64,000 nt of DNA from Patescibacteria group bacterium. Lineage in GTDB: Bacteria; Patescibacteriota; Microgenomatia; UM-FILTER-40-11. The stretch covers positions 24,818 through 88,817 of the forward strand of contig DATKVM010000002.1 in assembly GCA_035530075.1 (NCBI GenBank), read 5' to 3'. Numbering within the stretch: position 1 is the first letter of the stretch; every line of letters begins with the position of its first letter. Position numbers and translations under genes: made by a program. The notes under the pieces are model-generated. The model made no database searches and was not told the origin of the DNA. It saw only the letters and a list, made by a program, of their open reading frames with translations. Positions 633 through 59,780 of this stretch are shown here, in pieces.

Positions 633-1151
633 TCAATTAAGATTTCGCGGCATCACCTCGGTTTGGAATTCTAAGCTGGCTTTTTCGCCCGGACGGTCAG
701 TATCGCCGCCTTTTTGGACCGTAAATCCCAAGTGAACTTTGACCGGCAAGCCCGGGTTATCTTCACACCAAAAATCACACCCGAAAACAGTCACGCTGCT
801 GGAAGTCAAATCAACTGTCTGTGCCGAAACAGAAGATATCTTCTTTAGGTCCTCATCACAAACAAAATTAGTAACGATACCATTGGCGTCAGTCACCTGA
901 ACTTTTTGCATATCGCCCACCGAAGTACAGCCCACCCCCCGCGAATTAAGAATCATCCCTTCCATGACCGACAGGGCGTAATTACCATTTTGGCGAACTT
1001 CTTTAACTACCTCGGCTTTACCGGCGGCGGTCAAGGAGACTATCAAAAAACCGGAAGTCATCACCGCCACTAAACCCAAGATGGAAACCACCACAATCAT
1101 TTCAATCATCGTAAAACCTGACTGCGTCTGTTTTAAATTTTCAGCTCTCAT
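633..1151 (-). CDS. type IV pilin / prepilin-type N-terminal cleavage-methylation domain protein
   Basis: N-terminus QSGFTMIEMIVVVSILGLV: Gly, then F-T-M-I-E with Glu at +5, then a hydrophobic helix. Confidence 0.75.
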   Translation of the reverse strand: MRAENLKQTQSGFTMIEMIVVVSILGLVAVMTSGFLIVSLTAAGKAEVVKEVRQNGNYALSVMEGMILNSRGVGCTSVGDMQKVQVTDANGIVTNFVCDEDLKKISSVSAQTVDLTSSSVTVFGCDFWCEDNPGLPVKVHLGFTVQKGGDTDRPGEKASLEFQTEVMPRNLN

Positions 1152-1612
1152 TTATTGGTCACCGTCGTCTCAAATTTCAACTTATGATTAAAATCAGCTT
1201 CTCTGCATTCAGGATTGGAGCTTTTACTCTCCCAGAAAACATCAACACTAATTTTGACCATTTTTGCCTGGCCCCAATTGGGTGTTTCGGTAGGAAGATT
1301 ATTCGAATCTTCCAAAAGTCTAGTGAGTATGCAATAATCTTCCTCTTCGTTGTGCTCCGTGCCTGAAATATCTGGGGGGAGGGTCAAATACTCAGTTTCC
1401 CAAAACTTTTTGTAATTCTTGTTCTTATAATCAATAATCTGGGCAATTTTTTCTTGGGCCAAAGCAGTTAATCGACTTTGGTCGCTGGAGAAACGGGTGC
1501 TTTTGACCGAGGAACCGGTGGCCCGTACTAAACCTAAGGCAATTAAGCCCGCAATGCTTAAGGCAATAATTACTTCCCAAAGAGATTGGCCAGCCGAATT
1601 TTTTTGCGACAT
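1148..1612 (-). CDS. minor pilin-like protein (prepilin-type leader)
   Basis: AGQSLWEVIIALSIAGLIALGL: Gly-Gln cleavage-type site with Glu at +5 and a hydrophobic helix. It overlaps its neighbours by 4 nt. Confidence 0.6.
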   Translation of the reverse strand: MSQKNSAGQSLWEVIIALSIAGLIALGLVRATGSSVKSTRFSSDQSRLTALAQEKIAQIIDYKNKNYKKFWETEYLTLPPDISGTEHNEEEDYCILTRLLEDSNNLPTETPNWGQAKMVKISVDVFWESKSSNPECREADFNHKLKFETTVTNK

Positions 1613-2103
1613 TATCTTACTTCCTCCTCGCCTCGAATATTAATCGCTCCACCAGCATTAATATCAATAAGTTTACTTTTCCCAAAACCAAAAACAGTAA
1701 TCGTTGTCACCAAATCATTAGTAGGAAGTGAAGTAACTAAGCCCTGGCGTAAAACTTTGAATTTTATCCAATCGGGGCCACTAACAATTAGATTGCTTGA
1801 GACAAAATCAGCTTTAACTTGATAATCAGAACCACAATTGGCTTTAATAACATAGTTGGTACCATTAAGGTAAAAAGTATAGCCGGTTAGGGGAGTTGCT
1901 TGGCAATTAGGATGTTTCTGATTATTGCTCGCTAAGCTTTGGGCCAGTCTCAAATCTTGAGCGATTTTCCGAGCCGCCTGAGACACGAGTTGGTTCCGGC
2001 TGAAATTAATATAGGTGGCCAGACCGGTCACCGAGAGAATACCAATAATGGAAATAACTATTAAAAGCTCAATTAAAGTGAACCCCGCCGTTTGTCTTTT
2101 CAT
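1612..2103 (-). CDS. type IV pilin
   Basis: MKRQTAGFTLIELLIVISIIGILS, the canonical GFTLIELL class-III signal. Confidence 0.8.
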   Translation of the reverse strand: MKRQTAGFTLIELLIVISIIGILSVTGLATYINFSRNQLVSQAARKIAQDLRLAQSLASNNQKHPNCQATPLTGYTFYLNGTNYVIKANCGSDYQVKADFVSSNLIVSGPDWIKFKVLRQGLVTSLPTNDLVTTITVFGFGKSKLIDINAGGAINIRGEEEVR

Positions 2104-2129
2104 TCATTTAAGCATAGCTTGATTTTCAA

Positions 2130-2600
2130 TTAAGGATTAGCCGTTTCATAATTGCAAGCACTACTACCACCACAATTATTGGTGCAACTGGTAGGTTTTG
2201 CGGCCGCCCCTTCCAAATAGGCGCAAAGGAAATAGCTGTTTTTGGAGACTAAGCGATACTGATAATTATAAGTTGGCACCAGCGGGTCAGCCGGAACCTG
2301 CTGCATATAGACCACGCCTACACAGGGAGATCCGGCGGGCCCAGTGAGGGAACTACCCGAGATGACCGCGCTAGGATAAGTTTTACAGTCGTTGCGGTAA
2401 AGCTCCAGAGCCGAACGAATTTGTTCCAAATCGGCTTTCCTTTTGCTGTCCCGAGCGCTTTTTCTCGCCTGGGCAAAGCCCAAGAAGGAAAGTGAGACCA
2501 AAATCCCAATAATAGAAATTACCACTAATAACTCAATCAAGGTAAAACCGCACTTATTTTGGTCTTTCTTATTATTTTTATAATTTGGCAATTCAGGCAT
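2130..2600 (-). CDS. type IV pilin with a Cys-rich C-terminus
   Basis: KCGFTLIELLVVISIIGIL. The C-terminus reads TSCTNNCGGSSACNYETANP. Confidence 0.8.
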   Translation of the reverse strand: MPELPNYKNNKKDQNKCGFTLIELLVVISIIGILVSLSFLGFAQARKSARDSKRKADLEQIRSALELYRNDCKTYPSAVISGSSLTGPAGSPCVGVVYMQQVPADPLVPTYNYQYRLVSKNSYFLCAYLEGAAAKPTSCTNNCGGSSACNYETANP

Positions 2601-2606
2601 TTTTAC

Positions 2607-3245
2607 TTAGGGGCAGGTATTAGGCATTAAACTACAGACACCAGTACTTAAACAGGCGCTCTGGGTCATCCATGGCGGTAAACACGAAGAAACTCCAGAC
2701 AAAAAGACCCCCTTACAGGCTCCACTTTCACAACAATAACAAGTTGTTCCACTAGGTGGCGATGATGGAGCCACTGTTGGTTCAGATGAACCAGAAGAAC
2801 TCCCCACCGTGCAAGTACTACTTCCCGGGGTAGCTCCCTCACCACTCAAACCGTTGGAACAAACGATAAAATCCGATTCACTTCTCTCCAAATTTGCTGC
2901 CAAAACATAATCTATTCCGTCAGAAGAAGAATAGTACAGATAATCAGAATAAACTCCTTCTTCTGCCAAAACATCATTAAGGCAAGCGCCGCTTAAATAG
3001 TCAACCATCAGGGTACAAAGGTTATCAATATCACCGCTAGCCACCGGGTACATGGAACTATGAGCGGAAGCATAATTTTCCAGGGCGGTCCGATATTGAT
3101 TTAAATCGGATTTTCGCTGAGCGTCCCGAGCTCCTTTCTCGGCAGTTAAATAGCGAGCAGTGCCAAAAGCGGCCAAAATCCCAATGATAGAAATGACCAC
3201 CAATAATTCGATCAAGGTGAAGCCGATTTTTGTTTTTTCTCTCAT
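2607..3245 (-). CDS. type IV pilin with a Cys/Ser-rich C-terminal region
   Basis: KIGFTLIELLVVISIIGILAA. The C-terminal 60 aa contain about 10 Cys (TTCYCCESGACKG...). Confidence 0.8.
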   Translation of the reverse strand: MREKTKIGFTLIELLVVISIIGILAAFGTARYLTAEKGARDAQRKSDLNQYRTALENYASAHSSMYPVASGDIDNLCTLMVDYLSGACLNDVLAEEGVYSDYLYYSSSDGIDYVLAANLERSESDFIVCSNGLSGEGATPGSSTCTVGSSSGSSEPTVAPSSPPSGTTCYCCESGACKGVFLSGVSSCLPPWMTQSACLSTGVCSLMPNTCP

Positions 3246-3721
3246 GGCGCGTGAACCTCAAATTTTTTGCCGGAACTACAACCCCCATCCGCTTCTCCCT
3301 GAGGGTCGGAAGCGTTTTCCAAACAAGCCTTCAGAGTATAATCCAGAGGGTCAGTGTCATTCCGATCATAGTGATAAGCATACTCGCCGATATTAGCCGG
3401 GTCTGTCGGCACCGCCCTCATATAAACCGTGCCTCCCGTGCCCTCTAGGGCCGTGGCCATGGTATCCCAATCCGTGTCCGGAGGATAAGCCGGTTTTGGC
3501 TGGTCATGTTTATACATTTCCAAGGCTTTTTGAATCTCAATAAAATCACTTTTCCGTTGGGCATCCCGGGCTCTCTCTCTTACCCCCGTCATATTGCTAA
3601 TAAGCAGGGTGGCCAGAACCCCAATGATGGAAATGACCACCAATAATTCGATTAAGGTAAATCCCTTCTTTATCTCCTTAATACTTAATGCTTGATACTT
3701 GCTACTTAATACCCTTCTCAT
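3242..3721 (-). CDS. type IV pilin
   Basis: KKGFTLIELLVVISIIGVLATLL. Confidence 0.8.
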   Translation of the reverse strand: MRRVLSSKYQALSIKEIKKGFTLIELLVVISIIGVLATLLISNMTGVRERARDAQRKSDFIEIQKALEMYKHDQPKPAYPPDTDWDTMATALEGTGGTVYMRAVPTDPANIGEYAYHYDRNDTDPLDYTLKACLENASDPQGEADGGCSSGKKFEVHAP

Positions 3722-4305
3722 GGTGACAGATTAGAGCTGGCTACCCCATAATTATAACTTTTGTCGGTTACGCTCCCGCAATCTGCTTGGAGAGTCGCTT
3801 TTGGATCCTGTTTATTTTCCAGTTTAGCATAAAGTTTATAACCAGAAGGTAAGTCATTTTTAGAATAACAATATTCAGGATTGCCGGTAGGATCTTTGGG
3901 AAGCTCTTTCATATAAAGTGTGTTGCTATCCTTCATTTCTGCGCTTCCCCAAGTTAAGGCAACCTCAATCTTAATTTTTCCTCCTTCTGACCCCGGATAG
4001 TTACCATAGTCGTTGTAGTACATTTCTAAGGCCCGCTGCACCTGTTCCAAATCCGATTTTCTTTTAGCATCTCTGGATTTAAGCTGGCTACTACGGAAAC
4101 TATTTAAACCCACGGTTGCCAAAATGCCCAAAATCGCCATAACAATCAAAAGCTCAATCAAGGTAAAACCTTGACAAGCTTTGCTTATTAAAGTGAAGCC
4201 GCGTCGCGGCTGAACTTTATCAAGGTTCTTGCGAAGCAAGGTTCTTATAAGGGTGAAACCCTTGAAAGCTTTGCTTATCAAGGTGAAACCCGAACAATTT
4301 TTCAT
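3718..4305 (-). CDS. type IV pilin with a tandemly repeated GFTLI N-terminal motif. The start is reassigned to the ATG at 4305.
   Basis: The ORF-track entry 3718..4563 overlaps pilin 4310..4972, so its 5' end is unlikely to be real. The internal Met gives MKNCSGFTLISKAFKGFTLIRTLLRKNLDKVQPRRGFTLISKACQGFTLIELLIVMAILGILATVG. Confidence 0.6.
   Translation of the reverse strand: MKNCSGFTLISKAFKGFTLIRTLLRKNLDKVQPRRGFTLISKACQGFTLIELLIVMAILGILATVGLNSFRSSQLKSRDAKRKSDLEQVQRALEMYYNDYGNYPGSEGGKIKIEVALTWGSAEMKDSNTLYMKELPKDPTGNPEYCYSKNDLPSGYKLYAKLENKQDPKATLQADCGSVTDKSYNYGVASSNLSP
4141..4305 (-). repeat. imperfect tandem repeat of roughly 30-60 nt encoding repeated GFTLI(S/R) motifs at the pilin N-terminus
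   Basis: The reverse strand has four copies: ggtttcaccttgataagcaaagctttcaag, ggtttcacccttataagaacc..., ggcttcactttaataagcaaagcttgtcaa, ggttttaccttgattgag. Differences sit mainly at synonymous positions. Confidence 0.7.
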
Positions 4306-4309
4306 TTTC

Positions 4310-4972
4310 TTAATTGCACTCACGTAAAGGCTCCTCCGGCGTCCCGCACTTATTTTGACAACAAGCTTCGTCAATACAAGAACCAATATAAATATAATTG
4401 GGAGAACATTGCTCTGAGCCCGAAAGTTGCTGGCAAACCCCGCTAAAGCAGCCATAGAAGTCGGCGGGAGGGCTCGTTCCTCCACCGGGAGTAGTCCCGG
4501 GAGTAATGGTCGTCGTCTCCAGTCGGATATTGGAAACCACATAATTGCCTTTATCGGCGCCATAGGTGATAACCTTCTCTAATTCTAAGGTAGCATAAAT
4601 AGCGTATTGCTTACAATTGGGGTCAAGACGCTGATAAACATAAGGCTTTTTAGTCAGGGGATCACAAGGAACCGGATTTAAGTAAGCGGTAAAATCGGCG
4701 GCTGGCCGGCAAGTATTCGCGTCTTGGTAAACTTGCACCGGATAACAGGGATGGTCGCCCCCGTAATCTTCCACCGCCGTGACAATCTTTTTTAAATCGG
4801 ATTTCCGCCGACCATCACGAGCCTTAGCGATTTGATAACTAGGCTTAACGGCAAAAACCGTCAGTAAAATTAAAACTCCTAACGCAGCTACTACCACTAA
4901 GATTTCCGTTAAGGTCATTCCCGCCTTTAAAGAAAGAGTTTTTGACTGAAAGAGAGGATTTTTTCTCCCCAT
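4310..4972 (-). CDS. type IV pilin-like protein (G-MTLTEIL variant) with a Cys-rich C-terminus
   Basis: LSLKAGMTLTEILVVVAALGVLILL. The C-terminus is GCFSGVCQQLSGSEQCSPNYIYIGSCIDEACCQNKCG. It overlaps pilD by about 46 nt. Confidence 0.65.
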   Translation of the reverse strand: MGRKNPLFQSKTLSLKAGMTLTEILVVVAALGVLILLTVFAVKPSYQIAKARDGRRKSDLKKIVTAVEDYGGDHPCYPVQVYQDANTCRPAADFTAYLNPVPCDPLTKKPYVYQRLDPNCKQYAIYATLELEKVITYGADKGNYVVSNIRLETTTITPGTTPGGGTSPPADFYGCFSGVCQQLSGSEQCSPNYIYIGSCIDEACCQNKCGTPEEPLRECN

Positions 4973-5715
4973 AAAACGGTAATAATGATCGCGGCGGCCA
5001 AAAACGGGCCAAAAGCAATTTTTTGGCCAAACCTGGCTTTTTTAACTAAAATTAGTATGACCCCGACTATTGCCCCTGTCAAGAAAGCCAAATAAAAAGC
5101 AATTATTATTTTAGGAAAACCCAAAACTAAACCCATTAAAAAGGCCAGCTTCACATCACCCAATCCCATACCCCGGCCGCGGGTAACCACCCGAATTAAA
5201 AACAAAAATAAAGCGGCGCCGACGGCGGGGAGAAGAGTAGTAAGCAGTAAGTAGTGGGTAGTCAGGTGGGGAACGAAGATTTTTGATAAAAGAAAAAGAA
5301 AAATTACCGGCAGAAGAATTTCGTCGGGAATAATTTGCTGCTCAAGGTCAATAAAAAAGATGGCAATTAGGGCAGAAAACAAAACCCAAGTTAGCCCTAC
5401 CTCCGCTATCCCTAAGTAACCTAAGTTACTTAAGTTACCTAGGCAAGTTGCTCCTAAAACAAACAAAGTTCCGGTCAAAAGCTCAACTACCGGATAGCGC
5501 CAGGAAATAGGGGAGTGACAATACCGACAATGTCCCCTTAACCAAGCAAAAGATAAAAGGGGAACATTATCAAACCAAGCAATTTTCCGGCGGCACTTTG
5601 GGCAAAATGACCGCCCCCAAACTACCGACAATCCTCGGGGGAGCCGATAAATTACCACATTCAGAAAACTCCCGATACCCAAACCCAGCAGGCCCAAAAG
5701 GAATATCGGTATCAT
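4927..5715 (-). CDS. pilD: prepilin peptidase (A24 family)
   Basis: CPKCRRKIAWFDNVPLLSFAWLRGHCRYCHSPI zinc-binding tetracysteine. Multiple TM helices and a GLGDVKLAFLMG motif. Confidence 0.9.
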   Translation of the reverse strand: MIPIFLLGLLGLGIGSFLNVVIYRLPRGLSVVWGRSFCPKCRRKIAWFDNVPLLSFAWLRGHCRYCHSPISWRYPVVELLTGTLFVLGATCLGNLSNLGYLGIAEVGLTWVLFSALIAIFFIDLEQQIIPDEILLPVIFLFLLSKIFVPHLTTHYLLLTTLLPAVGAALFLFLIRVVTRGRGMGLGDVKLAFLMGLVLGFPKIIIAFYLAFLTGAIVGVILILVKKARFGQKIAFGPFLAAAIIITVLWGEKILSFSQKLFL

Positions 5716-5718
5716 CCT

Positions 5719-6321
5719 TTACAAGCAAACATAACACTCCCCCTTAGCCTCTTTCGGAGTCGCCGCATCGGTACAATCCGCGGAACAAGCTAAGTCATCC
5801 AGGCCGGTTCCCCAAACTTGAGTCTCGCTCTTGCAGGCGTTATACGCTTCGGTGGTAAATGACAGCGAAGCCGGGATAAAACACGCATAAGCACTGTTAT
5901 CGGTTACCGAAAAATACAAATAAACCTTTTTCCTGCTCGTTAATCTGGCCTTAAATCCACCCTTAACTTCCGCCGTATTTTCCAGATTCTCCAACATGGT
6001 CGGTGGAGAATTCCCATATACTATTACGGCTGAAGCCTCTAATAGCCCCGTGTCTAAACCTACATTTTGCGTACTGCCAACTGTATCTTGCCAAGGATAA
6101 TATTGAAGGGAAGCATAAAACCGGTCAATCGCGCTTAACAGTTGCTCCGAGTCCGACCGATCCCCGGTGTCCCGACCTTTATCGATTTGCTCAATCGGGT
6201 TAATCGCCGAAAGCACCGCTATTGCTAAAACTCCCAAAACCGCAATCACAATCAAGAGCTCAATCATCGTAAACCCCTGCCTTAATTTGGAAATTTGGAA
6301 TTTGAAATTAGAAATTTTCAT
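5719..6321 (-). CDS. type IV pilin. The start is moved to the second ATG, which has a strong RBS.
   Basis: RQGFTMIELLIVIAVLGVLAI. The upstream sequence gaaggggggtgaaATGaaa gives a GGGGGGTGA Shine-Dalgarno before MKISNFKF. The C-terminus has 5 Cys. Confidence 0.75.
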   Translation of the reverse strand: MKISNFKFQISKLRQGFTMIELLIVIAVLGVLAIAVLSAINPIEQIDKGRDTGDRSDSEQLLSAIDRFYASLQYYPWQDTVGSTQNVGLDTGLLEASAVIVYGNSPPTMLENLENTAEVKGGFKARLTSRKKVYLYFSVTDNSAYACFIPASLSFTTEAYNACKSETQVWGTGLDDLACSADCTDAATPKEAKGECYVCL

Positions 6322-6413
6322 TTCACCCCCCTTCATTTAGTAACTTTTAACACAATCTTGGTTATTTGCTAGTATGGCTTTTGGCGAACTGACTGTCAAG
6401 TCGAATTTCGGCT

Positions 6414-15931: not shown

Positions 15932-15955
15932 AACTAATTTTGATATCATTGAATT

Positions 15956-17134
15956 ATGTCAGAACCGGGTCAAAGTGAATTCTCAAAATCTTTGGTTGGA
16001 GGTCTGGTCACTCCCCGCAACGACAAAGGTTTACCGTTTCTTCCCGAGACAAGCAGTCTCTATAGAAAAACTGAGCAAATATCGGCCGCTCACCACCGGT
16101 CAAATCGGCTACCGGAGAGTGGTATGACTATTTGGCAAGATGAATTTGGAAACTTATTAACCGAAAGGGGGTTTAAGGGAGTCCCCGAAAAGGACCCTTC
16201 CATACAATTGGACGATGATTACCCTGAGGGGTTTAGAATCTACGGTTTAATGGTTAAAGATTATCTTCCTAGGGTAATCAAGGCTTCACATTTTTTACGC
16301 TCTCACGGATTACCAACAGAAAGAGTAATAGAAGCAAGAAAATTAGAAAGAGTTCCTTTTGAGGGAAAACAAATTACTGTTGAAGAATGGAAGGAACCAG
16401 CCTTGGCAAGTTTTCTCCAAAAGACTGATTCAGAAGAATTAAGAAAAGAAAAGCCAAATTTTTTGGAAAAATTGAAAGAATCGTTAACCAACATGGAATT
16501 CGTAGTCGTGGAGAGAGACTACCCAATAGGAGAAAGACTTAAAGATTTGAGACAAATTCAAACATGGAAGGAGACGCCACTAACCCAAAAAAACGCAGAA
16601 ACATTTTTTAGAAAAGTTCTTAGACTTCACAATCTTAATGCAGACAAAGAAAGTTGCGAAATATTGGCCAAAAAACTTGATGCGACCAAAGAAGAAGATT
16701 GGGATTACTATCTAAGTATAGTTTTGCCGGTTAAAATGGGCCGTTATTTAGGAAGAATGCATTCGTTGGGACTTTATCACAATTTTCCAACTACTCACAA
16801 TTGGACTGTTTCCGGCGACTTAGTCGATCTTGATAGTGTAAAGGGTCTTCCAATATTTCCAACCGATTCACCAATTGGAGAGCCAGAGATTAAATTGGAT
16901 ATTGACCGCACATTTTCAACCTTAAAAGATCTTGGCTATTTAGGCCATATATGTACGGCAAAACATTTTTCTTATTTTATTGCCAGTTATATGAATACCT
17001 ACCGTAAAGGTCAATCCTGGCCGCAAAGATGGTTTCCGGGACCAATTGAAAAATTGATATATGAAAAGAACTTAAGATTTTACGCAGTTGCTCTAACTGA
17101 AGCCAAAAAATTGGCACAAACTCTAGATGTTTAG
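15956..17134 (+). CDS. hypothetical protein, 392 aa; composition looks AT-rich and Lys/Glu-rich
   Basis: Long ORF with no recognisable motif. Its codon usage and AT content look unlike gyrA next door. Confidence 0.5.
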   Translation: MSEPGQSEFSKSLVGGLVTPRNDKGLPFLPETSSLYRKTEQISAAHHRSNRLPESGMTIWQDEFGNLLTERGFKGVPEKDPSIQLDDDYPEGFRIYGLMVKDYLPRVIKASHFLRSHGLPTERVIEARKLERVPFEGKQITVEEWKEPALASFLQKTDSEELRKEKPNFLEKLKESLTNMEFVVVERDYPIGERLKDLRQIQTWKETPLTQKNAETFFRKVLRLHNLNADKESCEILAKKLDATKEEDWDYYLSIVLPVKMGRYLGRMHSLGLYHNFPTTHNWTVSGDLVDLDSVKGLPIFPTDSPIGEPEIKLDIDRTFSTLKDLGYLGHICTAKHFSYFIASYMNTYRKGQSWPQRWFPGPIEKLIYEKNLRFYAVALTEAKKLAQTLDV

Positions 17135-17193
17135 ACGCACGATCAAAGGGAGTGGACTAAATGAGAAAATTTCTGCTTTTTCAACCAAACATA

Positions 17194-17221
17194 ATGTAAC
17201 ATATATAAATATATGTTACAC
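17194..17221. other. 28-bp near-perfect palindrome arranged 11+6+11 (ATGTAACATAT ATAAAT ATATGTTACAC); candidate Xer dif-like site or operator
   Basis: Read directly from the sequence. The arms match at 10 of 11 positions. A Xer-type recombinase is 2.7 kb away. A split copy lies at 36086..36137. Confidence 0.35.
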
Positions 17222-17224
17222 AAC

Positions 17225-17251
17225 TTGCGTTGTTTAAGAGTTTGCTATAAT
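17225..17251 (+). promoter_or_regulatory. candidate sigma70-type promoter for the MazG-like gene (TTGCGT -35-like, then TGcTATAAT extended -10)
   Basis: TATAAT at 17246-17251 is preceded by TGC. The GTG start lies at 17259. Confidence 0.35.
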
Positions 17252-17258
17252 AGCTCTG

Positions 17259-17567
17259 GTGAAAGATGTCCAAAAACAAGTTGATGAGTGGGTCAGGCAA
17301 TACAAAATTGGCTATTTTAAGCCCTTGGAAATTTTGGCGAGATTGACTGAAGAGGTAGGGGAGTTAGCCCGAGAATTAAACCACCGCTTTGGCCCAAAAA
17401 AGAAAAAGCCTTCTGAAGAAACCCAGGAAATCGGTGACGAAATAGCGGATATCATTTTTACCCTTGCTTGCTTGGCCAATTCATTGAACATTGATCTGGA
17501 AACGCACTTCAAAAGAGTAATGGATAAATGTTATGGCCGCGATAATGATAGATATGAAAGAAAGTAA
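17259..17567 (+). CDS. MazG-like nucleoside triphosphate pyrophosphohydrolase, small single-domain form
   Basis: EILARLTEEVGELARELN...EIADIIFTLACLANSLNIDLE, an EExxE/D-type MazG fold. GTG start. Confidence 0.7.
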   Translation: MKDVQKQVDEWVRQYKIGYFKPLEILARLTEEVGELARELNHRFGPKKKKPSEETQEIGDEIADIIFTLACLANSLNIDLETHFKRVMDKCYGRDNDRYERK

Positions 17568-17618: not shown

Positions 17619-18125
17619 ATGAATAAAAAAGAAACCGCCCCTAAAGGAGAAAAGAAAACTACTTCCGCCTCTTCCAAACTTCCTAAGCTCCATCGGTCCG
17701 AGACCGACCGCGTCTTGGCGGGTATCGCCGGGGGTTTAGGCGAATATTTCCATCTTGATCCGGTAGTTATCCGTCTAATCTTTATTGTCCTTTTCTTACA
17801 AGGGGCGGGCTTTTTGCTTTATTTAATCCTTTGGATTGTCATCCCCACCCAGTCCAAACTGGAAAAATCTTCCCAGGAGATCTTTAGGGATAATGCTCAG
17901 GAAATTAAAGATAAAGCCGAGGCTTGGACGGCGGACTTAAGAGCTCAAGGGAGAAGGCAAAACACTCAGCTTTGGTTCGGAATTTTGGTTATCTTCTTAG
18001 GCCTTTGGCTACTTTTAGAAAATTTCGGCTTTTTCAGTTTTTTCCGTCTCGAAAAGTTTTGGCCACTGCTATTAATCCTTTTAGGGATGGCTATCTTAAA
18101 TAAAAGAGAAAATGAGCAAGGATAA
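17619..18125 (+). CDS. PspC-domain membrane protein
   Basis: RSETDRVLAGIAGGLGEYFHLDPVVIRLIFIVLFL, the PspC consensus. Confidence 0.8.
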   Translation: MNKKETAPKGEKKTTSASSKLPKLHRSETDRVLAGIAGGLGEYFHLDPVVIRLIFIVLFLQGAGFLLYLILWIVIPTQSKLEKSSQEIFRDNAQEIKDKAEAWTADLRAQGRRQNTQLWFGILVIFLGLWLLLENFGFFSFFRLEKFWPLLLILLGMAILNKRENEQG

Positions 18126-19528: not shown

Positions 19529-19881
19529 AAAGAGGCCTTATTTGCCTCAAATTTCTTCCACACTCTTTGAAGTGTTTCCTGGGGAACTATTTTAAGCTCA
19601 ACTTTGGTGAGCATAAAAATAATCTCAGCGGTTAAATACAACCAATCCCCAAACTCGACAACTGAATGCTCACGACAAGTACCCTTAATTTGGTCGTGCT
19701 TAGAGTACAGTTTATTTCCTTTAAACCAAAGCATTGGTATTTCAAAGAGATGTAAAAACCAAGCTTGTATCCGAGGAGATAGTCTACCATTCCAACGATC
19801 AAACTGAGGAATGAACTCTTGGTGAATTTTTTTGAGAGTTATGTTTGGCATCGATCTGTCTATTGACTTGCGTCTATGCAT
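19525..19881 (-). CDS. hypothetical protein, 118 aa
   Basis: ORF with no recognisable motif. The stop overlaps the Nudix stop region and the start abuts the xer stop. Confidence 0.4.
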   Translation of the reverse strand: MHRRKSIDRSMPNITLKKIHQEFIPQFDRWNGRLSPRIQAWFLHLFEIPMLWFKGNKLYSKHDQIKGTCREHSVVEFGDWLYLTAEIIFMLTKVELKIVPQETLQRVWKKFEANKASF

Positions 19882-20843
19882 TATTTTTTCTCTGATTCTT
19901 TTAAGGGATGGAATTTACGATGGGTTTCTTCAGCAAATTTATCGGAGGCGTGGACATACCTGGTAGTCGTATCCAAAGATTCGTGACCAAGGAGAATTTG
20001 AATCGCCGCCGGGTTAGCGCCGGATTCAGCCAAATAAGTGGCAAACCCGTGTCTTAAGGAATGGGCACTCGTCGGGACATTGATTTTCAACTTTTGCCGA
20101 TATTCTTTAATTTTCATCTGGATATAATTAGTCGAAAGCCTTTTTTTGTTTGAAGATACATTAGGACCGGCATAAGGGATAAAAAGGGCTTCTAGGCCAT
20201 CCTGGCGGGTTGCCAGGTAGCGCTCTAAGATATTTTGAGCTCGGGGAGTTAAATAAACAAACCGTTCCTTTTTGCCTTTGCCCATAATAAAGATTTTGCC
20301 GGAACCGTCAATGTCTTGCCGATTTAACTGACAAATCTCGGAAATCCTCATCCCGGTAGAAAATAAAATCTCCATAATTACCTGGTTTCTTAAAGCGATT
20401 TGCGGGTCGTTCTCGAGATATGCCGGTGACTCAATCAGCTTAACTAAGTCCGCCATCTCCGCCACCTGGCCGTGTTTCTTTTCGGTCTTGACCATCTTGA
20501 CTGCCTCCGGTGGCAAGGGACAAGGCAAATCCATTTCAATTAAATATTTAAGAAAGCTTCGCAAAGCCGACAGCATCCGATTCAAACTCTTGGAGGCCAA
20601 TTCCTCCTCCGCGACTTCATTTTTAATTGGGGTCCGGCGGTCACGCGAAGCTAAATAAGCTTTAAATTGAGCGACAATTTTTTTGTCAACCTTTTCAAGC
20701 GGGGTAGAGGAGTCAGCCAGGAATTGGGCAAAGACCTGCAGGTCCCGCTCATAGTTGTAAATAGTCTCTAAAGAATAATTGTTGGTCTTCAAGTGAAGCA
20801 GGAAATCGTCAAAATAAGGCAGCATTATTTTTAATGATACCAT
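19881..20843 (-). CDS. xerC: tyrosine site-specific recombinase, XerC/XerD-like
   Basis: C-terminal catalytic box HSLRHGFATYLAESGANPAAIQILLGHESLDTTTRYVH with R..HxxR..Y residues. An N-terminal SAM-like core-binding domain is present. Confidence 0.85.
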   Translation of the reverse strand: MVSLKIMLPYFDDFLLHLKTNNYSLETIYNYERDLQVFAQFLADSSTPLEKVDKKIVAQFKAYLASRDRRTPIKNEVAEEELASKSLNRMLSALRSFLKYLIEMDLPCPLPPEAVKMVKTEKKHGQVAEMADLVKLIESPAYLENDPQIALRNQVIMEILFSTGMRISEICQLNRQDIDGSGKIFIMGKGKKERFVYLTPRAQNILERYLATRQDGLEALFIPYAGPNVSSNKKRLSTNYIQMKIKEYRQKLKINVPTSAHSLRHGFATYLAESGANPAAIQILLGHESLDTTTRYVHASDKFAEETHRKFHPLKESEKK

Positions 20844-20896
20844 TTGCCAGAGGGGAGAAGAAGAAAAGTCCTATTAGGGTATTGGGCTACTTCTCC

Positions 20897-20929
20897 TCAA
20901 ACCCTGGACTGAGTGTAAGGGATATTATA
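20897..20929. other. perfect 9-bp-stem hairpin GGACTGAGT-(14 nt)-ACTCAGTCC in the 5' region of xer
   Basis: Read directly from the sequence. A possible minus-strand promoter (TTGACA 20966-20971 rc, TATAGA 20944-20949 rc) sits upstream of it. Confidence 0.3.
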
Positions 20930-21426
20930 CTCAGTCCTTCTTAGTCTATAACCCCACCGACTTATTTGTCAAACGACTGCCTGAAAAGCCCCAGGACGGC
21001 TCGTGAGAGAAACTAACGATTACTCAGTTATCTTTTCTCTCCTCTAAATGGAGCGTCCTCTTTTTAAAATCTGGAAATTTTTTCTAATTTCGCGTGTCCC
21101 CCGGCTAGTCTCAACTAAGCGAGGTGTCGGCTCAAAAAGTGCTCGCCAGTTATCCACAGTCGAGCGGCGGTAACTACTATCAAACTATATCATTTAAGCC
21201 TAATGCGGCTTCGGATGGGCCATATTTGCTACTGGTTTTCTTTGGCAATTCTTAACTTTCCTTGCCAAATCGTGAAAATAGCGCGAGCGTTCGTGAAAAA
21301 TAACTTTCTTGGTTATGGGATGTTCACATTATAGGCCTTTACAGCTACCCCCACTCCCCTTTTCCCTAACCTCTGTCAAAAAAATTATTTAAAACCGGGG
21401 CTCAAATAAATTAACCAATGCGCCCT

Positions 21427-34804: not shown

Positions 34805-36082
34805 ATGATAAAAAAGATGCCAAACATAATTCCCCCCGTTAAAGGGACTCGGGATTTTTACCCAAAAGATTGGGCGTTTATTCAGTGGCTTTATGACAAA
34901 GTCAAAGAAGTTTCCCGGCTTTTTGGGTTTGAAGAATACGAAGGTCCGACTCTGGAAAGCCTGGACCTTTATGCCGCCAAATCCGGCGAAGAGCTGGTGA
35001 AAAAGCAAGCTTTTACTTTAACCGACCAGTCAGGTAAGGTCTTGGCTTTGCGGCCGGAAATGACGCCGAGCCTGGCCCGAATGGTCGCCCAAAAAGCCGG
35101 TTCCCTTACTTTTCCAGTCAAGTGGTTCACTTTTGGCCGGCGCTTTCGCTACGAAAAGCCCCAAAAAGGCCGGGGCCGAGAGTTTTTTCAATGGGACTGC
35201 GATATCTTAGGCGTAGATAATCCGGAAGCGGACACGGAAGTAATTGCTATCGCTGCTACTTTGCTTAAAAAGTTAGGACTGGAACCAACCGAGGTTAAAA
35301 TTAAAGTTAATGACCGCCAACTCTTGCAAGGAAGGCTCCAGGATTTAGGGATTACTGAGGAAAAAATTGTCCCTGCTTTTCGGTTGATTGATAAAGTTGA
35401 TAAGGTCAGCCGAAAGGATTTTTTTGAAATGGGCCAAGAGGCCGGCCTGACTGATGAGCAAACGGAAGCGATTTTGGGAGTGATTGAAGAAAAGAATGCC
35501 TACCTGGATTCATCTTGGTTATTACGGGTTTTTGAGCTTTTGAAAAAATACGGTGTTTCCGAATTTATTGAATATGACCCGCGAATTGTTCGGGGGCTGG
35601 AATATTACACCGGCGTTGTCTTTGAAGCCTGGGACGCCAAGGGCGAGTTCCGCTCCATCCTAGGCGGCGGCCGCTACGATAATTTAACCGCCGAGGTTGG
35701 CGGGCGAAAGATTATTCCCGGCACCGGCTTTGCTTCCGGCGATATGGTAGTGGCCGAGGTTCTCCGAGCTTACGACAAATATCCCAAGTTATCGGTCAAT
35801 CCAACGCAAGTTTTAGTCACCGCTTTTTCGGTTGAGCTTTTGGGGCCATCAATTGAACTGGCAAATAAACTGCGAGAAAGCGAGATTAACACCGAAGTCT
35901 TTCTGGAACCGGGAGAAAAGCTGGAAAAACAAATCAAATATGCCGACAGAAAAGGTATTCCATACGTGGCTATTCTTGGACCAGATGAGGCGGCCAAAGG
36001 AACAGTTACCCTTAAAAACCTTCGCGATGGCACTCAAGAGACTATTCCCCAATCCGAGATGGCGAAAATCTTAAAGCAGTAG
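34805..36082 (+). CDS. hisS: histidyl-tRNA synthetase
   Basis: Class II motifs including LRPEMTPSLAR, FRYEKPQKGRGREFFQWDCDI and GGGRYDNL, plus a C-terminal anticodon-binding domain. Confidence 0.95.
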   Translation: MIKKMPNIIPPVKGTRDFYPKDWAFIQWLYDKVKEVSRLFGFEEYEGPTLESLDLYAAKSGEELVKKQAFTLTDQSGKVLALRPEMTPSLARMVAQKAGSLTFPVKWFTFGRRFRYEKPQKGRGREFFQWDCDILGVDNPEADTEVIAIAATLLKKLGLEPTEVKIKVNDRQLLQGRLQDLGITEEKIVPAFRLIDKVDKVSRKDFFEMGQEAGLTDEQTEAILGVIEEKNAYLDSSWLLRVFELLKKYGVSEFIEYDPRIVRGLEYYTGVVFEAWDAKGEFRSILGGGRYDNLTAEVGGRKIIPGTGFASGDMVVAEVLRAYDKYPKLSVNPTQVLVTAFSVELLGPSIELANKLRESEINTEVFLEPGEKLEKQIKYADRKGIPYVAILGPDEAAKGTVTLKNLRDGTQETIPQSEMAKILKQ

Positions 36083-36085
36083 TCA

Positions 36086-36137
36086 ATGTAACATATATAA
36101 GCAAAGCTTGATTTTCCGAATTAAATATATATTACAT
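36086..36137. other. split inverted repeat ATGTAACATATATA-(23 nt)-AAATATATATTACAT, related to the 17194 palindrome
   Basis: Read directly from the sequence. It shares the ATGTAACATATATA arm with 17194..17207. Confidence 0.3.
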
Positions 36138-37104
36138 GGAGCCCAGGATAATGAGCGAAGAAAGAAGAAAGGCTTATTTGACCCTTCTAACAACTGCCTT
36201 TATTTGGGGACTAGCACCGCCAATTATCAAATACACCCTGCGCTATACTTCTCCCCTCACTTTCCTTTTTTACCGCTTTTTGATTGTTTCATTAATTCTA
36301 ATCGTCCCCTTAACCATTAAGTTCATAAAGCAAAGACCAAGCTTAAATCTTTGTTTTCAGTATTTAGCTTTAGGCTTTATCGGTACTCCCCTTACCCTGC
36401 TGCTGCTTTTCTTTGGGATGCAAAAAACCGCGGCCATTAACGCCTCGCTCATTTCTATTTTCACCCCGATTTTGATTATTTTGGGCGGGGTGGTTTTCTT
36501 AAGAGAAACAGTTACCCGTCAGGAAAGATTCGGTATCAGTTTCATTTTCTTGGGAGCTTTTTTAAGCATCCTTGAACCACTTTTTAAAAATGGTCTAAGC
36601 CTCAACCAAGGACTCTGGGGCAATTTACTAATATTCGGGGGGTCAGTCGCCTGGGCCAGCTTCTCCTTGCTCCGGCGAAAAGCAGGAGAGGCCCTTGATT
36701 CTTTTGTCTTATCCGCCTCTTCGTTCCTGGTCGGCCTAATCACTCTTCTCCCCTTCGTCACATTTAACTTTTCACTTTTAGCTCTTAACTCAAATGCCTG
36801 GCCGGGCATTTGCTATATGGCGATTTTGGGCTCGGTGATTGCTTATTTCACCTATATCTACGGCTTTTCTAAAATTGAGGCGTCCGAAGCAACTCTTTTT
36901 ACTTATCTGGAACCGATATTCGCGATTCCAATAGCGGTTGCCTTTTTACACGAAGAACTCAGTTTTATTTTCCTCTTGGGAGCTTTTTTTATCGTTATTG
37001 GCGTTCTGGTTAGCCAAACCAGAAAATTAAGACTTCCTCGGCAATTCCGACTGCTCATTTTTCAGCCGAAGATAAGCCGTGCCGAGAAGAGCTTCAAAAA
37101 ATAA
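36136..37104 (+). CDS. EamA/DMT-superfamily transporter
   Basis: 10 TM helices in two EamA repeats. Confidence 0.8.
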   Translation: MEPRIMSEERRKAYLTLLTTAFIWGLAPPIIKYTLRYTSPLTFLFYRFLIVSLILIVPLTIKFIKQRPSLNLCFQYLALGFIGTPLTLLLLFFGMQKTAAINASLISIFTPILIILGGVVFLRETVTRQERFGISFIFLGAFLSILEPLFKNGLSLNQGLWGNLLIFGGSVAWASFSLLRRKAGEALDSFVLSASSFLVGLITLLPFVTFNFSLLALNSNAWPGICYMAILGSVIAYFTYIYGFSKIEASEATLFTYLEPIFAIPIAVAFLHEELSFIFLLGAFFIVIGVLVSQTRKLRLPRQFRLLIFQPKISRAEKSFKK

Positions 37105-43033: not shown

Positions 43034-43958
43034 AATTTCCTCTCAACAATTTAGCAATTAATAGCGAAATTAGACTTAAAGCTTAAATCTAATTTCGTCT
43101 AACAAAATATACTTCACATTGATCACTCAATGAAAATCTCTCTGGTTCTGAAAAACTATTTCCCATCGATTTTAAAACGGCATCCGTCCCCTGATCAGTA
43201 TAAGTAAAATTGTCAAAAAGAACTCCGCCCCTAAACACTAACAATCTAAAATATTCTTCTAGCACTCTTGGCTCATAACGCGTTGCCCCAAAAAAATCAT
43301 AAATTAAAGAAAAACTTCCGCTTGCAAAGGGAGCCTCCCGGGCATCAAACCGGAGGTATGGAATGTTACCCCCCGACTGTAATTTTGCAATATCTCCACA
43401 AACCAACTGATAAGGATCGCCAAGAGCACTTCTAAGTCTTTTTTCAACACTCGCATTGTTTGAAGCTGGGGACAAAATGCGTATTTTATCATTACCTGAC
43501 AGAGGCAAAGAAAGTCCTTGGATAACCTTGGATAATGCTACAATTTCCTCTTCATTTAGACTGGACGACCAATTTTCCAAACTTCCCCCACGAGAATAAG
43601 TATTTACAAGATATTCTGCTAAATCATCCATAAACTAAAGTATAGCAAAATTTATATATCTTTTAAAAAAACAAAATCTTTTCTATTATAAATTTCTCCT
43701 TGCCTTTATAAAAAATGCCAATCAATTGCTTTCGATTCAATTTTGACATAAATAAAATAGTGAAATGATGTGTGGGTATATTTTGTTATTAGACAAAAAT
43801 AGTTGTTGCCTCCGGAACCTTAGCTTTAACAATTCTGCCCAAGTAATCTCTCTGAAGAATTTCCCTTGCTTTATTTTTCTTTGGAAGCACTAGTTTGAAG
43901 TAAAAATCAAAAGTAGGGGCAGTGAAAAGTGAATCCCGATAGAAAGTGACATATGAAA
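43015..43958. repeat. direct repeat copy A (about 0.95 kb): ychF 5' end, paralog A gene and about 330 bp upstream
   Basis: Three blocks are near-identical to copy B: 43015-43046, 43089-43150 (about 60/60) and 43876-43958 (about 90%). The coding middle has diverged. Confidence 0.8.
43089..43631 (-). CDS. small class-I methyltransferase-fold protein (degenerate motif I), paralog A
   Basis: FDAREAPFASGSFSLIYDFFGA...LEEYFRLLVFRGGVLFD matches methyltransferase motifs post-I, II and III. The Gly-rich motif I is not conserved (IRILSPASNNAS). About 50% identical to 46217..46810. Confidence 0.6.
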   Translation of the reverse strand: MDDLAEYLVNTYSRGGSLENWSSSLNEEEIVALSKVIQGLSLPLSGNDKIRILSPASNNASVEKRLRSALGDPYQLVCGDIAKLQSGGNIPYLRFDAREAPFASGSFSLIYDFFGATRYEPRVLEEYFRLLVFRGGVLFDNFTYTDQGTDAVLKSMGNSFSEPERFSLSDQCEVYFVRRN

Positions 43959-46810: not shown

Positions 46811-46932
46811 TAATATATTATAGCAAAGTATTTAAAAACTCTTCACTCTTTTTCTTCGGAAGCACTAATTTGAAGTAAAAATCAAAAGTAGGGGCAGTGA
46901 AAAGTGTATCCCAATAGACAGTGACATATGGC
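46237..46932. repeat. direct repeat copy B (about 0.7 kb), lacking the 45-bp palindrome found in copy A
   Basis: See copy A. Here the ychF fragment (atgagtctttctttggggata, reverse strand) is fused to the paralog B reading frame. Confidence 0.8.
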
Positions 46933-47801: not shown

Positions 47802-47820
47802 CTTCCCATAATACCACTAA

Positions 47821-47850
47821 TAGCTTACTTGAGGCTAAAAGACGAGGCTC
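47821..47850. promoter_or_regulatory. 30-nt conserved motif copy 1 (TAGCTTACTTGAGGCTAAAAGACGAGGCTC), a candidate operator
   Basis: 28 of 30 positions match 48791..48820. On the minus strand it lies just upstream of a TGgTATTAT -10-like box for gene 47472..47801. Confidence 0.45.
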
Positions 47851-48573: not shown

Positions 48574-48790
48574 ATTAACCCACCTCCTTTGCTCTCAGTG
48601 TTATGAATATATATTCATTATATCAGGCAACAAAGCTTTGTCAAGCAGTCAATTAAAACTCAAATTATGGCATTATGGAGTGGGCTATCCCCCCCTTTTT
48701 CATCTCTCTTGGTTAATCTTCTGAAGTTAAAAAATATCGATTCCGACTTAAACTATCCCAATTGAAAAGCTTGACATAGTAGGCCAATCA

Positions 48791-58985: not shown

Positions 58986-58996
58986 CGCGAAAAGGT

Positions 58997-59752: not shown

Positions 59753-59780
59753 GAGAAATTTTTGGGAGAAAAAGCAAGGG
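59753..59780. repeat. intergenic repeat family 1, copy B
   Basis: GAGAAATTTTTGGGAGAAAAAGCAAGGG. Confidence 0.8.

What the first reader, a model, noticed from the sequence alone, without database searches (positions are those of the whole stretch)
17194..17221. 28-bp dif-like palindrome 2.7 kb from the Xer-type recombinase, with a split second copy upstream of the EamA gene
Seen in sequence: ATGTAACATAT-ATAAAT-ATATGTTACAC is a perfect 11+6+11 arrangement with 10 of 11 arm matches. This is the architecture of Xer recombination sites such as dif.

A Xer-type tyrosine recombinase lies at 19881..20843.

A second site at 36086..36137 keeps both arms (ATGTAACATATATA ... AAATATATATTACAT) but separates them by 23 nt.

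Inference: the first copy may be the chromosome dimer-resolution site, or an attachment site of an integrated element. The AT-rich hypothetical gene at 15956..17134 just upstream could be such an element. The second copy is either a degenerate pseudo-site or shows that the motif is an operator for a shared regulator.
Basis: partly seen in the sequence, partly recalled or inferred. Interest (0 to 1): 0.5.

Follow-up and report, generated by a model that had tools for sequence, protein, structure and literature searches.

The report
Young AT-rich palindrome, not dif
The 28-bp "dif-like" site is a real, perfect AT-rich palindrome, but it lies in DNA that only this one species has. Its second copy is stitched together from short pieces copied from elsewhere in the same genome, so it looks like a recent by-product of DNA copying rather than the chromosome dimer-resolution site.

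Summary
The sequence is as described, and is better read as a perfect 12+2+12 inverted repeat (17195-17220). The same 12-mer arms recur at 36087-36098 and 36125-36136: four half-sites against 0.10 expected by chance.

The dif reading fails every test I could run:
- A profile built from 36 published dif sites scores it at -5 bits. The weakest true site scores 19.
- Third-codon GC skew keeps the same sign on both sides across 83 kb.
- No relative carries it (about 440 kb of related Patescibacteria DNA; no Patescibacteria hit in a scan of 185,579 species genomes).
- It sits inside a 1.3-kb insertion that the closest relative lacks.

Site 2 lies in a 58-nt spacer that three of five related species lack. 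Its 52 nt are tiled by three patches that overlap by TAA:
- 16 nt identical to site 1;
- 27 nt copied from a pilin-gene spacer (2109-2133);
- 15 nt matching site 1.

Its outer AATGTAAC is the ancestral end of hisS. The spacer at site 1 also holds a 19/20 copy of a segment of the PspC gene.

Best reading: a young palindrome and a templated mosaic insertion made by template switching. Site 1 occupies the slot where the closest relative has a GC-rich hairpin after gyrA, so it may serve as a weak 3' hairpin. Interest is low.

The parts
17195..17220 (.). Site 1: perfect 12+2+12 AT-rich palindrome TGTAACATATAT-AA-ATATATGTTACA.
   Evidence: As RNA it forms an 11-bp stem with a 4-nt loop, -10.2 kcal/mol, z -4.5.
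17220..17233 (+). Small second hairpin (ACAAC-UUGC-GUUGU) directly after the palindrome.
   Evidence: the two hairpins together give -12.8 kcal/mol. No U-tract terminator is called.
15933..17240 (+). Species-specific 1308-nt segment between the gyrA stop and the conserved MazG promoter. It holds the 392-aa ORF (15956-17134) and site 1.
   Evidence: BLAST against the closest relative, L112: homology ends at 15932 and resumes at 17241, and L112 has 81 nt there. GC is 0.396 against 0.44-0.49 around it.
17164..17183 (+). 20-nt patch in the site-1 spacer, a 19/20 copy of a coding segment of the PspC gene (18017-18036).
   Evidence: (E 1e-3) and the shuffle test. The orthologous coding segment exists in L112, so the gene is the donor.
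17243..17251 (+). Extended -10 box TGCTATAAT of the MazG operon, conserved in L112. The GTG start at 17259 is 7 nt downstream, so the mRNA is probably leaderless.
36093..36150 (+). 58-nt spacer between hisS and EamA that relatives L200, L201 and L210 lack. In them the two genes abut or overlap.
36085..36100 (+). Site 2, patch A: AATGTAACATATATAA, identical to 17193-17208. Its first 8 nt (AATGTAAC, with the old hisS stop TAA) are ancestral at this locus.
   Evidence: 16/16. Searches show ...CCAATGTAAC / ...TCAACGTAAC in the relatives.
36098..36124 (+). Site 2, patch B: TAAGCAAAGCTTGATTTTCCGAATTAA. It matches the pilin-gene spacer with 24 identities, 1 mismatch and a 2-nt gap.
   Evidence: E 1.3e-4 to 2.5e-4; at most 1 of 500 shuffles.
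36122..36136 (+). Site 2, patch C: TAAATATATATTACA, 14/15 identical to 17206-17220. It overlaps patch B by TAA.
2109..2133 (+). Spacer between two pilin genes. It is the donor, or a sister copy, of the interior of site 2.
   Evidence: It is present in three strain variants, L204-L206.
19881..20843 (-). Xer-family tyrosine recombinase gene. It was considered as a partner, but no link to the palindrome could be shown.
   Evidence: It is not syntenic with MazG in relatives: only 1 of 84 loci has a homologue nearby, at 34% identity.

Best explanation
Site 1 is an evolutionarily young, perfect AT-rich inverted duplication. It lies in the spacer created when a foreign 392-aa gene was inserted between gyrA and the MazG operon.

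Site 2 is not an independent functional site. It is a 58-nt templated mosaic insertion at the hisS-EamA junction.

Inferred mechanism for site 2:
1. A nascent DNA end finishing in the native ...AATGTAAC paired with the identical 8-mer at site 1.
2. It copied ATATATAA from site 1.
3. It switched at a TAA microhomology to the pilin-gene spacer and copied about 24 nt.
4. It switched at another TAA back to site 1 and copied its right arm.
5. It then returned to its own locus.

This is serial template switching of the microhomology-mediated (MMBIR) or quasipalindrome type. It explains the identical arms, the odd 26-nt spacing and the ancestral left end without invoking any binding protein.

If site 1 has a role, the most likely one is a modest RNA or DNA hairpin marking the 3' end of the gyrB-gyrA-ORF392 transcript, just upstream of the MazG promoter. 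That is the slot where the closest relative has a GC-rich hairpin.

Shown: the sequence facts, the absence from relatives, the patch homologies and the positional equivalence. Inferred: the template-switch mechanism, its direction, and any hairpin function.
For: - Site 1 lies in a 1308-nt segment absent from the closest relative. That relative has an 81-nt spacer with a -22.5 kcal/mol hairpin in front of the same TTTGCTATAATAGCTCT promoter.
- Site 2 lies in a 58-nt spacer absent from L200, L201 and L210, where hisS and EamA abut or overlap.
- The left 8 nt of site 2 align with the ancestral hisS stop region.
- Positions 36085-36136 are completely tiled by three patches with donors at 17193-17208, 2109-2133 and 17206-17220. 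The patches overlap by TAA.
- The site-1 spacer carries a 19/20 copy of a PspC coding segment whose orthologue exists in L112.
- Such matches occur in at most 3 of 500 shuffles.
- Short intergenic duplications are frequent in this window.
- Template switching that perfects or homogenises inverted repeats, and templated insertions at microhomology, are documented (PMC7202029, PMC8604942, PMC8421209).
- Other hairpins sit just after genes in this window.
Against: - The direction of copying is not proven. Site 1 could instead be site 2 with its interior deleted between the two TAA repeats.
- Only about 83 kb of this genome could be read, so more copies elsewhere cannot be excluded.
- All 13 strain-level contigs are identical, so there is no polymorphism to date the events or to test for selection.
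- The hairpin (-10.2 kcal/mol) is weaker than the other post-gene hairpins here (-17 to -25) and has no U tract. A terminator role is therefore weakly supported.
- The last 14 nt of the site-2 insertion (36137-36150) have no identified donor.
Confidence: 0.5

Rival explanations
1. Operator. The palindrome is the binding site of a helix-turn-helix regulator encoded elsewhere in the genome. That regulator would control the MazG-PspC-NUDIX operon and EamA.
For: Both sites lie just upstream of same-strand genes. Site 1 is centred about 51 nt upstream of the probable leaderless start of MazG. The same 12-mer arms flank a conserved operator-like element upstream of XRE-type HTH genes in Bacillales. 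There, 15 of 16 Firmicutes loci examined have a 66-83-aa HTH_3 ORF 1-29 nt away, and at least 30 of the 55 hits with 14-16-nt spacing have the HTH motif nearby.
Against: - Arm spacing is 2 nt at one site and 26 nt at the other, which one dimer geometry cannot bind.
- The Bacillales element is two 18-bp boxes (TGYAAY-N6-RTTRCA). Site 1 has TGTAAC-N14-GTTACA and no inner half-sites.
- No XRE-like gene is found in 83 kb.
- The motif is not conserved upstream of MazG in 80 relatives or upstream of EamA in 5.
- Site 2's arms are explained by copying, which removes the regulon argument.
- Site 1 lies upstream of an extended -10 promoter, a poor place for a repressor.
Confidence: 0.13
2. Chromosomal dif. 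Site 1 is the dimer-resolution site used by the nearby Xer-like recombinase, as a single-recombinase system with a nearly symmetric site.
For: The 11-6-11 geometry can be drawn on it. A Xer-family gene lies 2.7 kb away. The site is intergenic. Single-recombinase dif sites such as difSL, difH and archaeal dif are atypical (PMC5357621), so a poor match to the XerCD profile is not decisive. GC3 skew is weaker towards the left end of the region, so a terminus some tens of kb away cannot be excluded.
Against: - The profile of 36 published dif sites gives -5.3 and -4.5 bits, rank 151-183 of 165,918 positions. Training sites score 19.4 or more (sites from PMC3025954, additional file 2).
- It matches the invariant core ATAA-N6-TTATGT at only 8 of 10 positions. 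That level is found 100 times in the window (75 expected), and the two mismatches are the innermost arm bases.
- GC3 skew is negative for genes of both orientations on both sides. Cumulative skew has no extremum at 17.2 kb.
- It sits in DNA absent from the closest relative.
- No Patescibacteria genome among 185,579 species matched the arms, and nothing was found in about 440 kb of relatives.
- The arms recur at site 2, whereas published dif predictions rely on a single occurrence per genome (PMC3025954).
- The Xer gene is not syntenic with this locus in relatives.
Confidence: 0.04
3. Mobile-element ends. The unit is a tiny non-autonomous element (MITE/REP-like, TG...CA termini). Alternatively it is a recombinase attachment or cassette site (pdif-module or attC-like) that brought in the 392-aa gene.
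For: - The copies are near-identical and both lie in newly gained intergenic DNA.
- The arms start with TG and end with CA, as many transposon ends do (from my own knowledge of IS families).
- The palindrome lies at the 3' edge of an inserted gene, as attC and pdif sites do.
- GTTACAC/ATGTAAC resemble the integron core GTTRRRY/RYYYAAC at 6 of 7 positions (by eye, from memory of the consensus).
Against: - Only two copies in 83 kb, and none in relatives.
- No target-site duplication at either copy.
- The left arm of site 2 is ancestral sequence, which a self-contained element would not provide.
- No partner site at the left boundary of the gene insertion.
- Homologues of the 392-aa gene elsewhere have no such site.
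- No transposase or integron integrase is adjacent.
- At 26-28 bp it is too short for an attC with R''/L''/L'/R' boxes.
- No inversion or excision variant among 13 strain contigs.
Confidence: 0.13

Closest known systems
Quasipalindrome or template-switch mutations, and microhomology-mediated templated insertions (MMBIR/FoSTeS-type)
   Same: The inverted repeat has perfect arms. The insertion is tiled by short patches whose donors lie elsewhere in the same genome, joined at 3-nt (TAA) and 8-nt microhomologies. The mechanism is documented in E. coli, yeast and human cells (PMC7202029, PMC8604942, PMC8421209).
   Different: Here it is inferred from comparative sequence only. The donors are up to 34 kb away. 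Neither the direction of copying nor the enzymes involved are known for a Patescibacteria cell.
XerCD dif and the single-recombinase sites difSL, difH and archaeal dif
   Same: An 11-6-11 reading is possible. The core is AT-rich. The site is intergenic, with a Xer-family gene nearby.
   Different: It fails the canonical profile. It is not at a skew switch, not conserved in relatives and not unique (site 2). It is not adjacent to the recombinase gene in the way difSL is to xerS (PMC5357621). The symmetry also runs through the would-be central region.
Operator upstream of small XRE-family (HTH_3) regulators paired with a DUF6773-like membrane protein in Bacillales
   Same: The outer 12-mer arms, TGTAAYATATAT / ATATATRTTACA, are identical.
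   Different: In Bacillales the arms belong to two 18-bp palindromic boxes 21 bp apart, placed 20-30 nt upstream of the regulator's own gene. Site 1 has no inner half-sites, and no such regulator is found nearby.
Post-gene hairpins (terminator-like stem-loops), including the GC-rich hairpin after gyrA in relative L112
   Same: Site 1 holds the same position, between the end of the upstream operon and the conserved MazG -10 box. Several other hairpins follow genes in this window.
   Different: The stem is all A-U apart from two G-C pairs. It gives -10.2 kcal/mol against -17 to -25, has no U tract, and is not called by the terminator scan.
MITE/REP elements and Acinetobacter pdif modules
   Same: Short palindromic units in intergenic DNA, with one next to an inserted gene.
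   Different: Only two copies, no target duplication, no second flanking site and no associated transposase. One arm is ancestral host sequence.

Membership tests
dif (XerCD type) | Two 11-bp arms around a 6-8-bp central region | tested here: met
   ATGTAACATAT-ATAAAT-ATATGTTACAC. This is a sub-reading of a perfect 12+2+12 palindrome.
dif (XerCD type) | Sequence fits the conserved dif profile (ATAA-N6-TTATGTnAAnT core) | tested here: not met
   A position weight matrix from 36 published sites (PMC3025954, supplement) gives -5.3 and -4.5 bits. Training sites score 19.4 or more. The core match is 8/10, a level seen 100 times in the window.
dif (XerCD type) | Lies at the GC-skew switch (terminus), within about 1-3% of genome length | tested here: not met
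   GC3 skew has the same sign on both sides from -6.5 to +73 kb, and cumulative skew has no extremum at 17.2 kb. Only 83 kb could be read, so a terminus tens of kb away is not excluded.
dif (XerCD type) | Single occurrence per replicon | tested here: inconclusive
   The full 28-mer occurs once in 83 kb, but both arms recur at 36087-36136. The rest of the genome was not readable.
dif (XerCD type) | Conserved among related genomes | tested here: not met
   No Patescibacteria hit in the genome-contig scan. None in about 440 kb of relatives. The surrounding DNA is absent from the closest relative.
dif (XerCD type) | Bound and cleaved by the cognate Xer recombinase | not testable with these tools
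   Needs EMSA and cleavage assays with the product of 19881-20843.
Single-recombinase dif module (XerS/difSL type) | Site immediately adjacent to the recombinase gene, forming one module | tested here: not met
   The site is 2.7 kb and six genes away. The Xer gene is not linked to this locus in relatives.
IMEX / pdif gene module | Inserted DNA flanked by Xer-type sites on both sides | tested here: not met
   The left boundary, 15932-15955, has no related sequence, and no half-site occurs elsewhere in the insert.
MITE / REP repeat | Many dispersed copies, target-site duplication, terminal inverted repeats | tested here: not met
   Two copies in 83 kb and no duplication at the flanks. Inverted termini are present. 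The genome-wide count is unknown.
XRE-type operator (Bacillales kind) | Two 18-bp boxes TGYAAY-N6-RTTRCA next to the regulator's own gene | tested here: not met
   Site 1 is TGTAAC-N14-GTTACA without inner half-sites. tblastn finds no homologue in 83 kb.
Intrinsic terminator | G+C-rich stem followed by a U tract | tested here: not met
   The scan finds none at either site. The stem is A-U rich, -10.2 kcal/mol.
Integron attC | R''-L''...L'-R' structure of about 55-140 nt next to a cassette, with an integron integrase | tested here: not met
   The unit is 28 nt with a single pair of arms. The recombinase matches the integron-integrase models only partially (86 bits against a cut-off of 265).
Templated (template-switch) insertion | Inserted DNA made of patches with donors elsewhere in the genome, joined at microhomologies, absent from relatives | tested here: met
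   Three patches tile 36085-36136 with TAA overlaps and an 8-nt ancestral anchor. The PspC patch lies at site 1.

The most novel reading that the evidence does not exclude
Site 1 could still be the working recombination site of the neighbouring lone Xer-like recombinase of this Patescibacteria species. It would be either an unusually symmetric dif that has relocated into young DNA, or a Xer-dependent capture site through which the 392-aa gene was acquired. Site 2 would then record a past interaction with a pseudo-site at the end of hisS.
Probability: 0.05. Interest if true: 0.55.

Novelty: new member of a known kind. Interest (0 to 1): 0.15.

Why it matters
It matters little in itself. The result removes a false dif candidate. 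It also shows that, in a small Patescibacteria genome, new intergenic spacers can be assembled from short patches copied from elsewhere in the same chromosome, and that a perfect palindrome can arise in this way.

The practical lesson for genome scans is that an 11-6-11 AT-rich palindrome near a Xer-family gene is not enough to call dif. Comparison with the nearest relatives, and a search for donor sequences, settle the question quickly.

If the minority reading were true, it would give the first handle on chromosome dimer resolution or gene capture in this phylum.

Tried and rejected
1. Chance: rejected.
2. Association with the 392-aa gene family. Homologues at 33-50% identity sit in unrelated contexts and have no such palindrome.
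3. Phylogenetic footprinting upstream of MazG in 80 metagenome loci. Only the -10 box is conserved, not the palindrome.
4. A pattern scan of 185,579 species genomes. It found mostly Bacillales operators and (TA)n runs, and no Patescibacteria. A viral-contig scan gave 4 irrelevant hits.
5. Search for an XRE regulator in the window and its extensions: none. Pfam and NCBIfam searches of about 45 window proteins found no helix-turn-helix regulator; only a DksA-type zinc-finger protein and a YebC/TACO1-family protein turned up.
6. Known RNA family or tRNA at either site: none.
7. Terminator and promoter consensus scans: nothing convincing.
8. Strain-level inversion or excision between the two sites: all 13 contigs are collinear and identical.
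9. Extending the genome sample by 19 kb: no new copies.
10. Literature search for the 12-mers and for dif in Patescibacteria: nothing relevant.
11. The 13.9-bit profile hit at 17184-17211, which overlaps site 1 in another register. It is below the weakest true dif, and I judge it within the range expected by chance for 166,000 positions (my estimate; no shuffle control).

Full report
**What is there.** The repeat finder shows that the symmetry goes further than an 11+6+11 reading. It is a perfect 12+2+12 inverted repeat, TGTAACATATAT-AA-ATATATGTTACA, at 17195-17220. The same 12-mer occurs at 36087-36098, and with one mismatch on the other strand at 36125-36136, leaving 26 nt between those arms. 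With at most one mismatch there are 4 half-sites in the window against 0.10 expected, and none of 100 shuffles reaches 4. The recurrence is real, although perfect 12-nt-arm palindromes as such are not rare here. The organism is an uncultured Patescibacteria (Microgenomates-like) bacterium, judged from the names attached to identical and related proteins.

**Context.**
- Site 1 lies between a 392-aa ORF with no family match (15956-17134) and a MazG-like gene (17259-17567). The MazG gene heads a MazG-PspC-LiaF-like-PspC-NUDIX cluster.
- An extended -10 box, TGCTATAAT (17243-17251), ends 7 nt before the GTG start. The same arrangement is seen in most of 80 relatives, so the mRNA is probably leaderless.
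- Site 2 lies between the stop codon of hisS (36082) and an EamA transporter gene. Gene callers start that gene at 36151, behind a GGAG.
- The Xer-family gene at 19881-20843 is real but scores below the curated cut-offs for XerC, XerD and XerA.

**Tests of the dif reading.**
1. *Sequence.* I built a position weight matrix from 36 dif sites of six phyla listed in additional file 2 of Kono et al. (PMC3025954). I scored every 28-mer in 83 kb of this genome. Site 1 scores -5.3 and -4.5 bits (rank 151-183 of 165,918), while the training sites score 19.4-37.2. Its 8/10 match to the invariant core ATAA-N6-TTATGT is shared by 100 positions in the window, against 75 expected.
2. *Position.* The skew of the + strand is negative over almost the whole window, with a bump only where genes lie on the + strand. 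At third codon positions the skew is negative for genes of both orientations from -6.5 kb to +73 kb, on both sides of site 1. There is no replichore boundary at the site. Only 83 kb could be read, so a terminus some tens of kb away is not excluded.
3. *Conservation.* A scan of one genome from each of 185,579 species for TGTAAYATATAT-N0-30-ATATATRTTACA returned 93 places, none in Patescibacteria. Eighty metagenome loci carrying MazG orthologues (66-95% identity) have neither the palindrome upstream of MazG nor a paired half-site anywhere in about 440 kb.
4. *Age.* In the closest relative, L112 (MazG 95% identical, DNA about 79%), gyrA is followed by 81 nt with a strong GC-rich hairpin and then the same TTTGCTATAATAGCTCT promoter. 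This genome has 1308 nt there instead, namely the 392-aa gene and the palindrome. A dimer-resolution site would not be expected inside species-specific DNA.
5. *Linkage.* The Xer gene is not linked to this locus in relatives.

Published descriptions require a single site near the terminus (PMC3025954, PMC5357621). The reading is therefore not supported.

**What site 2 is.**
- In relatives L200 and L201, hisS ends ...CCAATGTAA-C or ...TCAACGTAA-C, and the EamA start codon follows one base after the stop codon. In L210 the two genes overlap by 8 nt.
- This genome has 58 extra nt (36093-36150).
- The outer AATGTAAC of the left arm is therefore ancestral hisS sequence. The old TAA stop is still in frame, two codons after a new TAG.
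- A sensitive self-comparison shows that 36085-36136 is completely tiled by three patches:
  - 16 nt identical to 17193-17208;
  - 27 nt matching the spacer between two pilin genes at 2109-2133 (24 identities, one mismatch, a 2-nt gap; E 1e-4);
  - 15 nt matching 17206-17220 at 14/15.
- Neighbouring patches overlap by TAA.
- The spacer at site 1 contains a comparable patch. Positions 17164-17183 are a 19/20 copy of a coding segment of the PspC gene 850 nt downstream, and the orthologous segment exists in L112, so the gene is the donor.
- Matches of this quality occur in at most 3 of 500 shuffles.
- Short intergenic duplications are common in this window.

**Most likely mechanism.** A mosaic of short patches joined at microhomologies, anchored on an 8-nt identity with native sequence, is the signature of serial template switching. 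Quasipalindrome-associated template switching perfects inverted repeats in E. coli (PMC7202029) and homogenises repeat arms in yeast lineages (PMC8604942). Templated insertions at microhomology are the hallmark of MMBIR (PMC8421209). I therefore read site 1 as a young inverted duplication in the junction DNA of a gene insertion. I read site 2 as a templated insertion that used site 1 and the pilin spacer as donors. This accounts for the identical arms, the 26-nt spacing and the ancestral left end without any binding protein. The reverse order, in which site 1 arose from site 2 by deletion between the TAA repeats, is not excluded.

**Possible function.** Site 1 occupies the slot that holds a -22.5 kcal/mol hairpin in L112, between the upstream operon and the MazG -10 box. 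As RNA it folds into an 11-bp stem (-10.2 kcal/mol, z -4.5) followed by a 5-bp hairpin. Other genes in this window are followed by hairpins of -17 to -25 kcal/mol. A weak 3' hairpin or insulator role is plausible. It is unproven, because there is no U tract and the terminator scan finds nothing. As + strand RNA, site 2 folds no better than shuffled sequence.

**Rivals.**
- *Operator.* The genome scan unexpectedly showed that the same arms flank a conserved 38-40-bp element 20-30 nt upstream of small XRE-type HTH_3 genes paired with a DUF6773-like membrane protein in Bacillales. That element is two 18-bp boxes 21 bp apart, an architecture site 1 lacks. No such regulator is encoded in 83 kb. The two spacings here cannot fit one dimer, and neither site is conserved upstream of the orthologous genes.
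- *Mobile element or attachment site.* There are only two copies, no target duplication and no partner at the left edge of the gene insertion. Homologues of the gene have no palindrome, and 13 strain contigs show no rearrangement. The 392-aa protein models as a kinase-like fold with weak similarity to SelO/YdiU, not as a recombinase or transposase.

**Verdict.**
- The dif interpretation is not supported.
- The remark that the neighbouring gene is an insertion is correct.
- The feature is an ordinary product of recent sequence turnover, with at most a minor hairpin role.
- Confidence is about 0.5 for this reading, 0.13 each for an operator or a mobile/attachment site, and 0.04 for dif.

Noticed in passing
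window 20844-21426: A 583-nt gene-free stretch directly upstream of the Xer-like gene, with a 13+6+13 hairpin at 20906-20937. It has no tRNA or Rfam match and no similarity in any fetched relative. It could hold an unrecognised RNA gene or a regulatory region.
   Followed up: partly
window 4534-4561 (- strand): GGCGCCGATAA-AGGCAA-TTATGTGGTTT is the only perfect match in the window to the invariant dif core ATAA-N6-TTATGT. It lies inside an ORF of the pilin cluster and scores only 7.9 bits with the dif profile, so it is probably chance.
   Followed up: partly
window 17184-17211 (- strand): The best generic-dif profile hit in 83 kb (13.9 bits: TATTTATATAT-GTTACA-TTATGTTTGGT) overlaps the left half of site 1 in a different register. 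It is below the weakest true dif (19.4 bits), and I judge it within chance expectation for 166,000 positions (no shuffle control).
   Followed up: yes
window 17243-17261, and loci L112-L191 upstream of MazG: The MazG-like gene appears to be leaderless. A -10 box (often TGnTATAAT) ends 6-7 nt before the start codon in this genome and in most of 80 related Patescibacteria loci.
   Followed up: partly
window 15956-17134: The species-specific 392-aa ORF has no Pfam or NCBIfam match and only five other homologues. Its AlphaFold model (pLDDT 69) gives weak Foldseek hits to the SelO/YdiU kinase-like AMPylase/UMPylase fold (E 9e-4, TM 0.38). It has invariant H275, N282 and D291-x-D293.
   Followed up: partly
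loci L021-L111 (Bacillaceae, Paenibacillaceae and others): A conserved double palindrome, TGTAAYATATATATTRCA-N3-TGYAATATATATRTTACA, sits 20-30 nt upstream of a 66-83-aa HTH_3 (XRE) gene followed by a ~140-aa DUF6773-like membrane protein gene. It is probably the autoregulatory operator of that widespread gene pair.
   Followed up: partly
window 43874-43955 / 46849-46930; 58978-59025 / 59754-59785 / 60200-60252 / 60868-60891; 62113-62161 / 63660-63708; 47820-47847 / 48790-48817: Several other families of short intergenic repeats (22-82 nt, 87-96% identical). Some lie next to paralogous genes, and some recur between tandem genes on the - strand. They are probably shared promoter or 5' regions.
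   Followed up: no
window 36080-36092: hisS ends at a TAG two codons before the in-frame TAA used by relatives, so the C-terminus is two residues shorter than the ancestral one.
   Followed up: yes
window 633-6336 versus locus L204: The type IV pilin gene cluster differs strongly between strains of the same species; a naive positional comparison over the 11-kb overlap gives 69% identity, against 99.99% at the other end of the window. This points to hypervariable pilins.
   Followed up: no
loci L019, L026, L050, L065, L082, L102; L035, L041, L052, L067, L106: Eggerthellaceae MAGs share TGTAATATATATCTTGCATGCAAGATATATATTACA. The tiny Stammera capleta genomes carry repeated 50-bp palindromes with the same outer arms. 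Their function is unknown.
   Followed up: no
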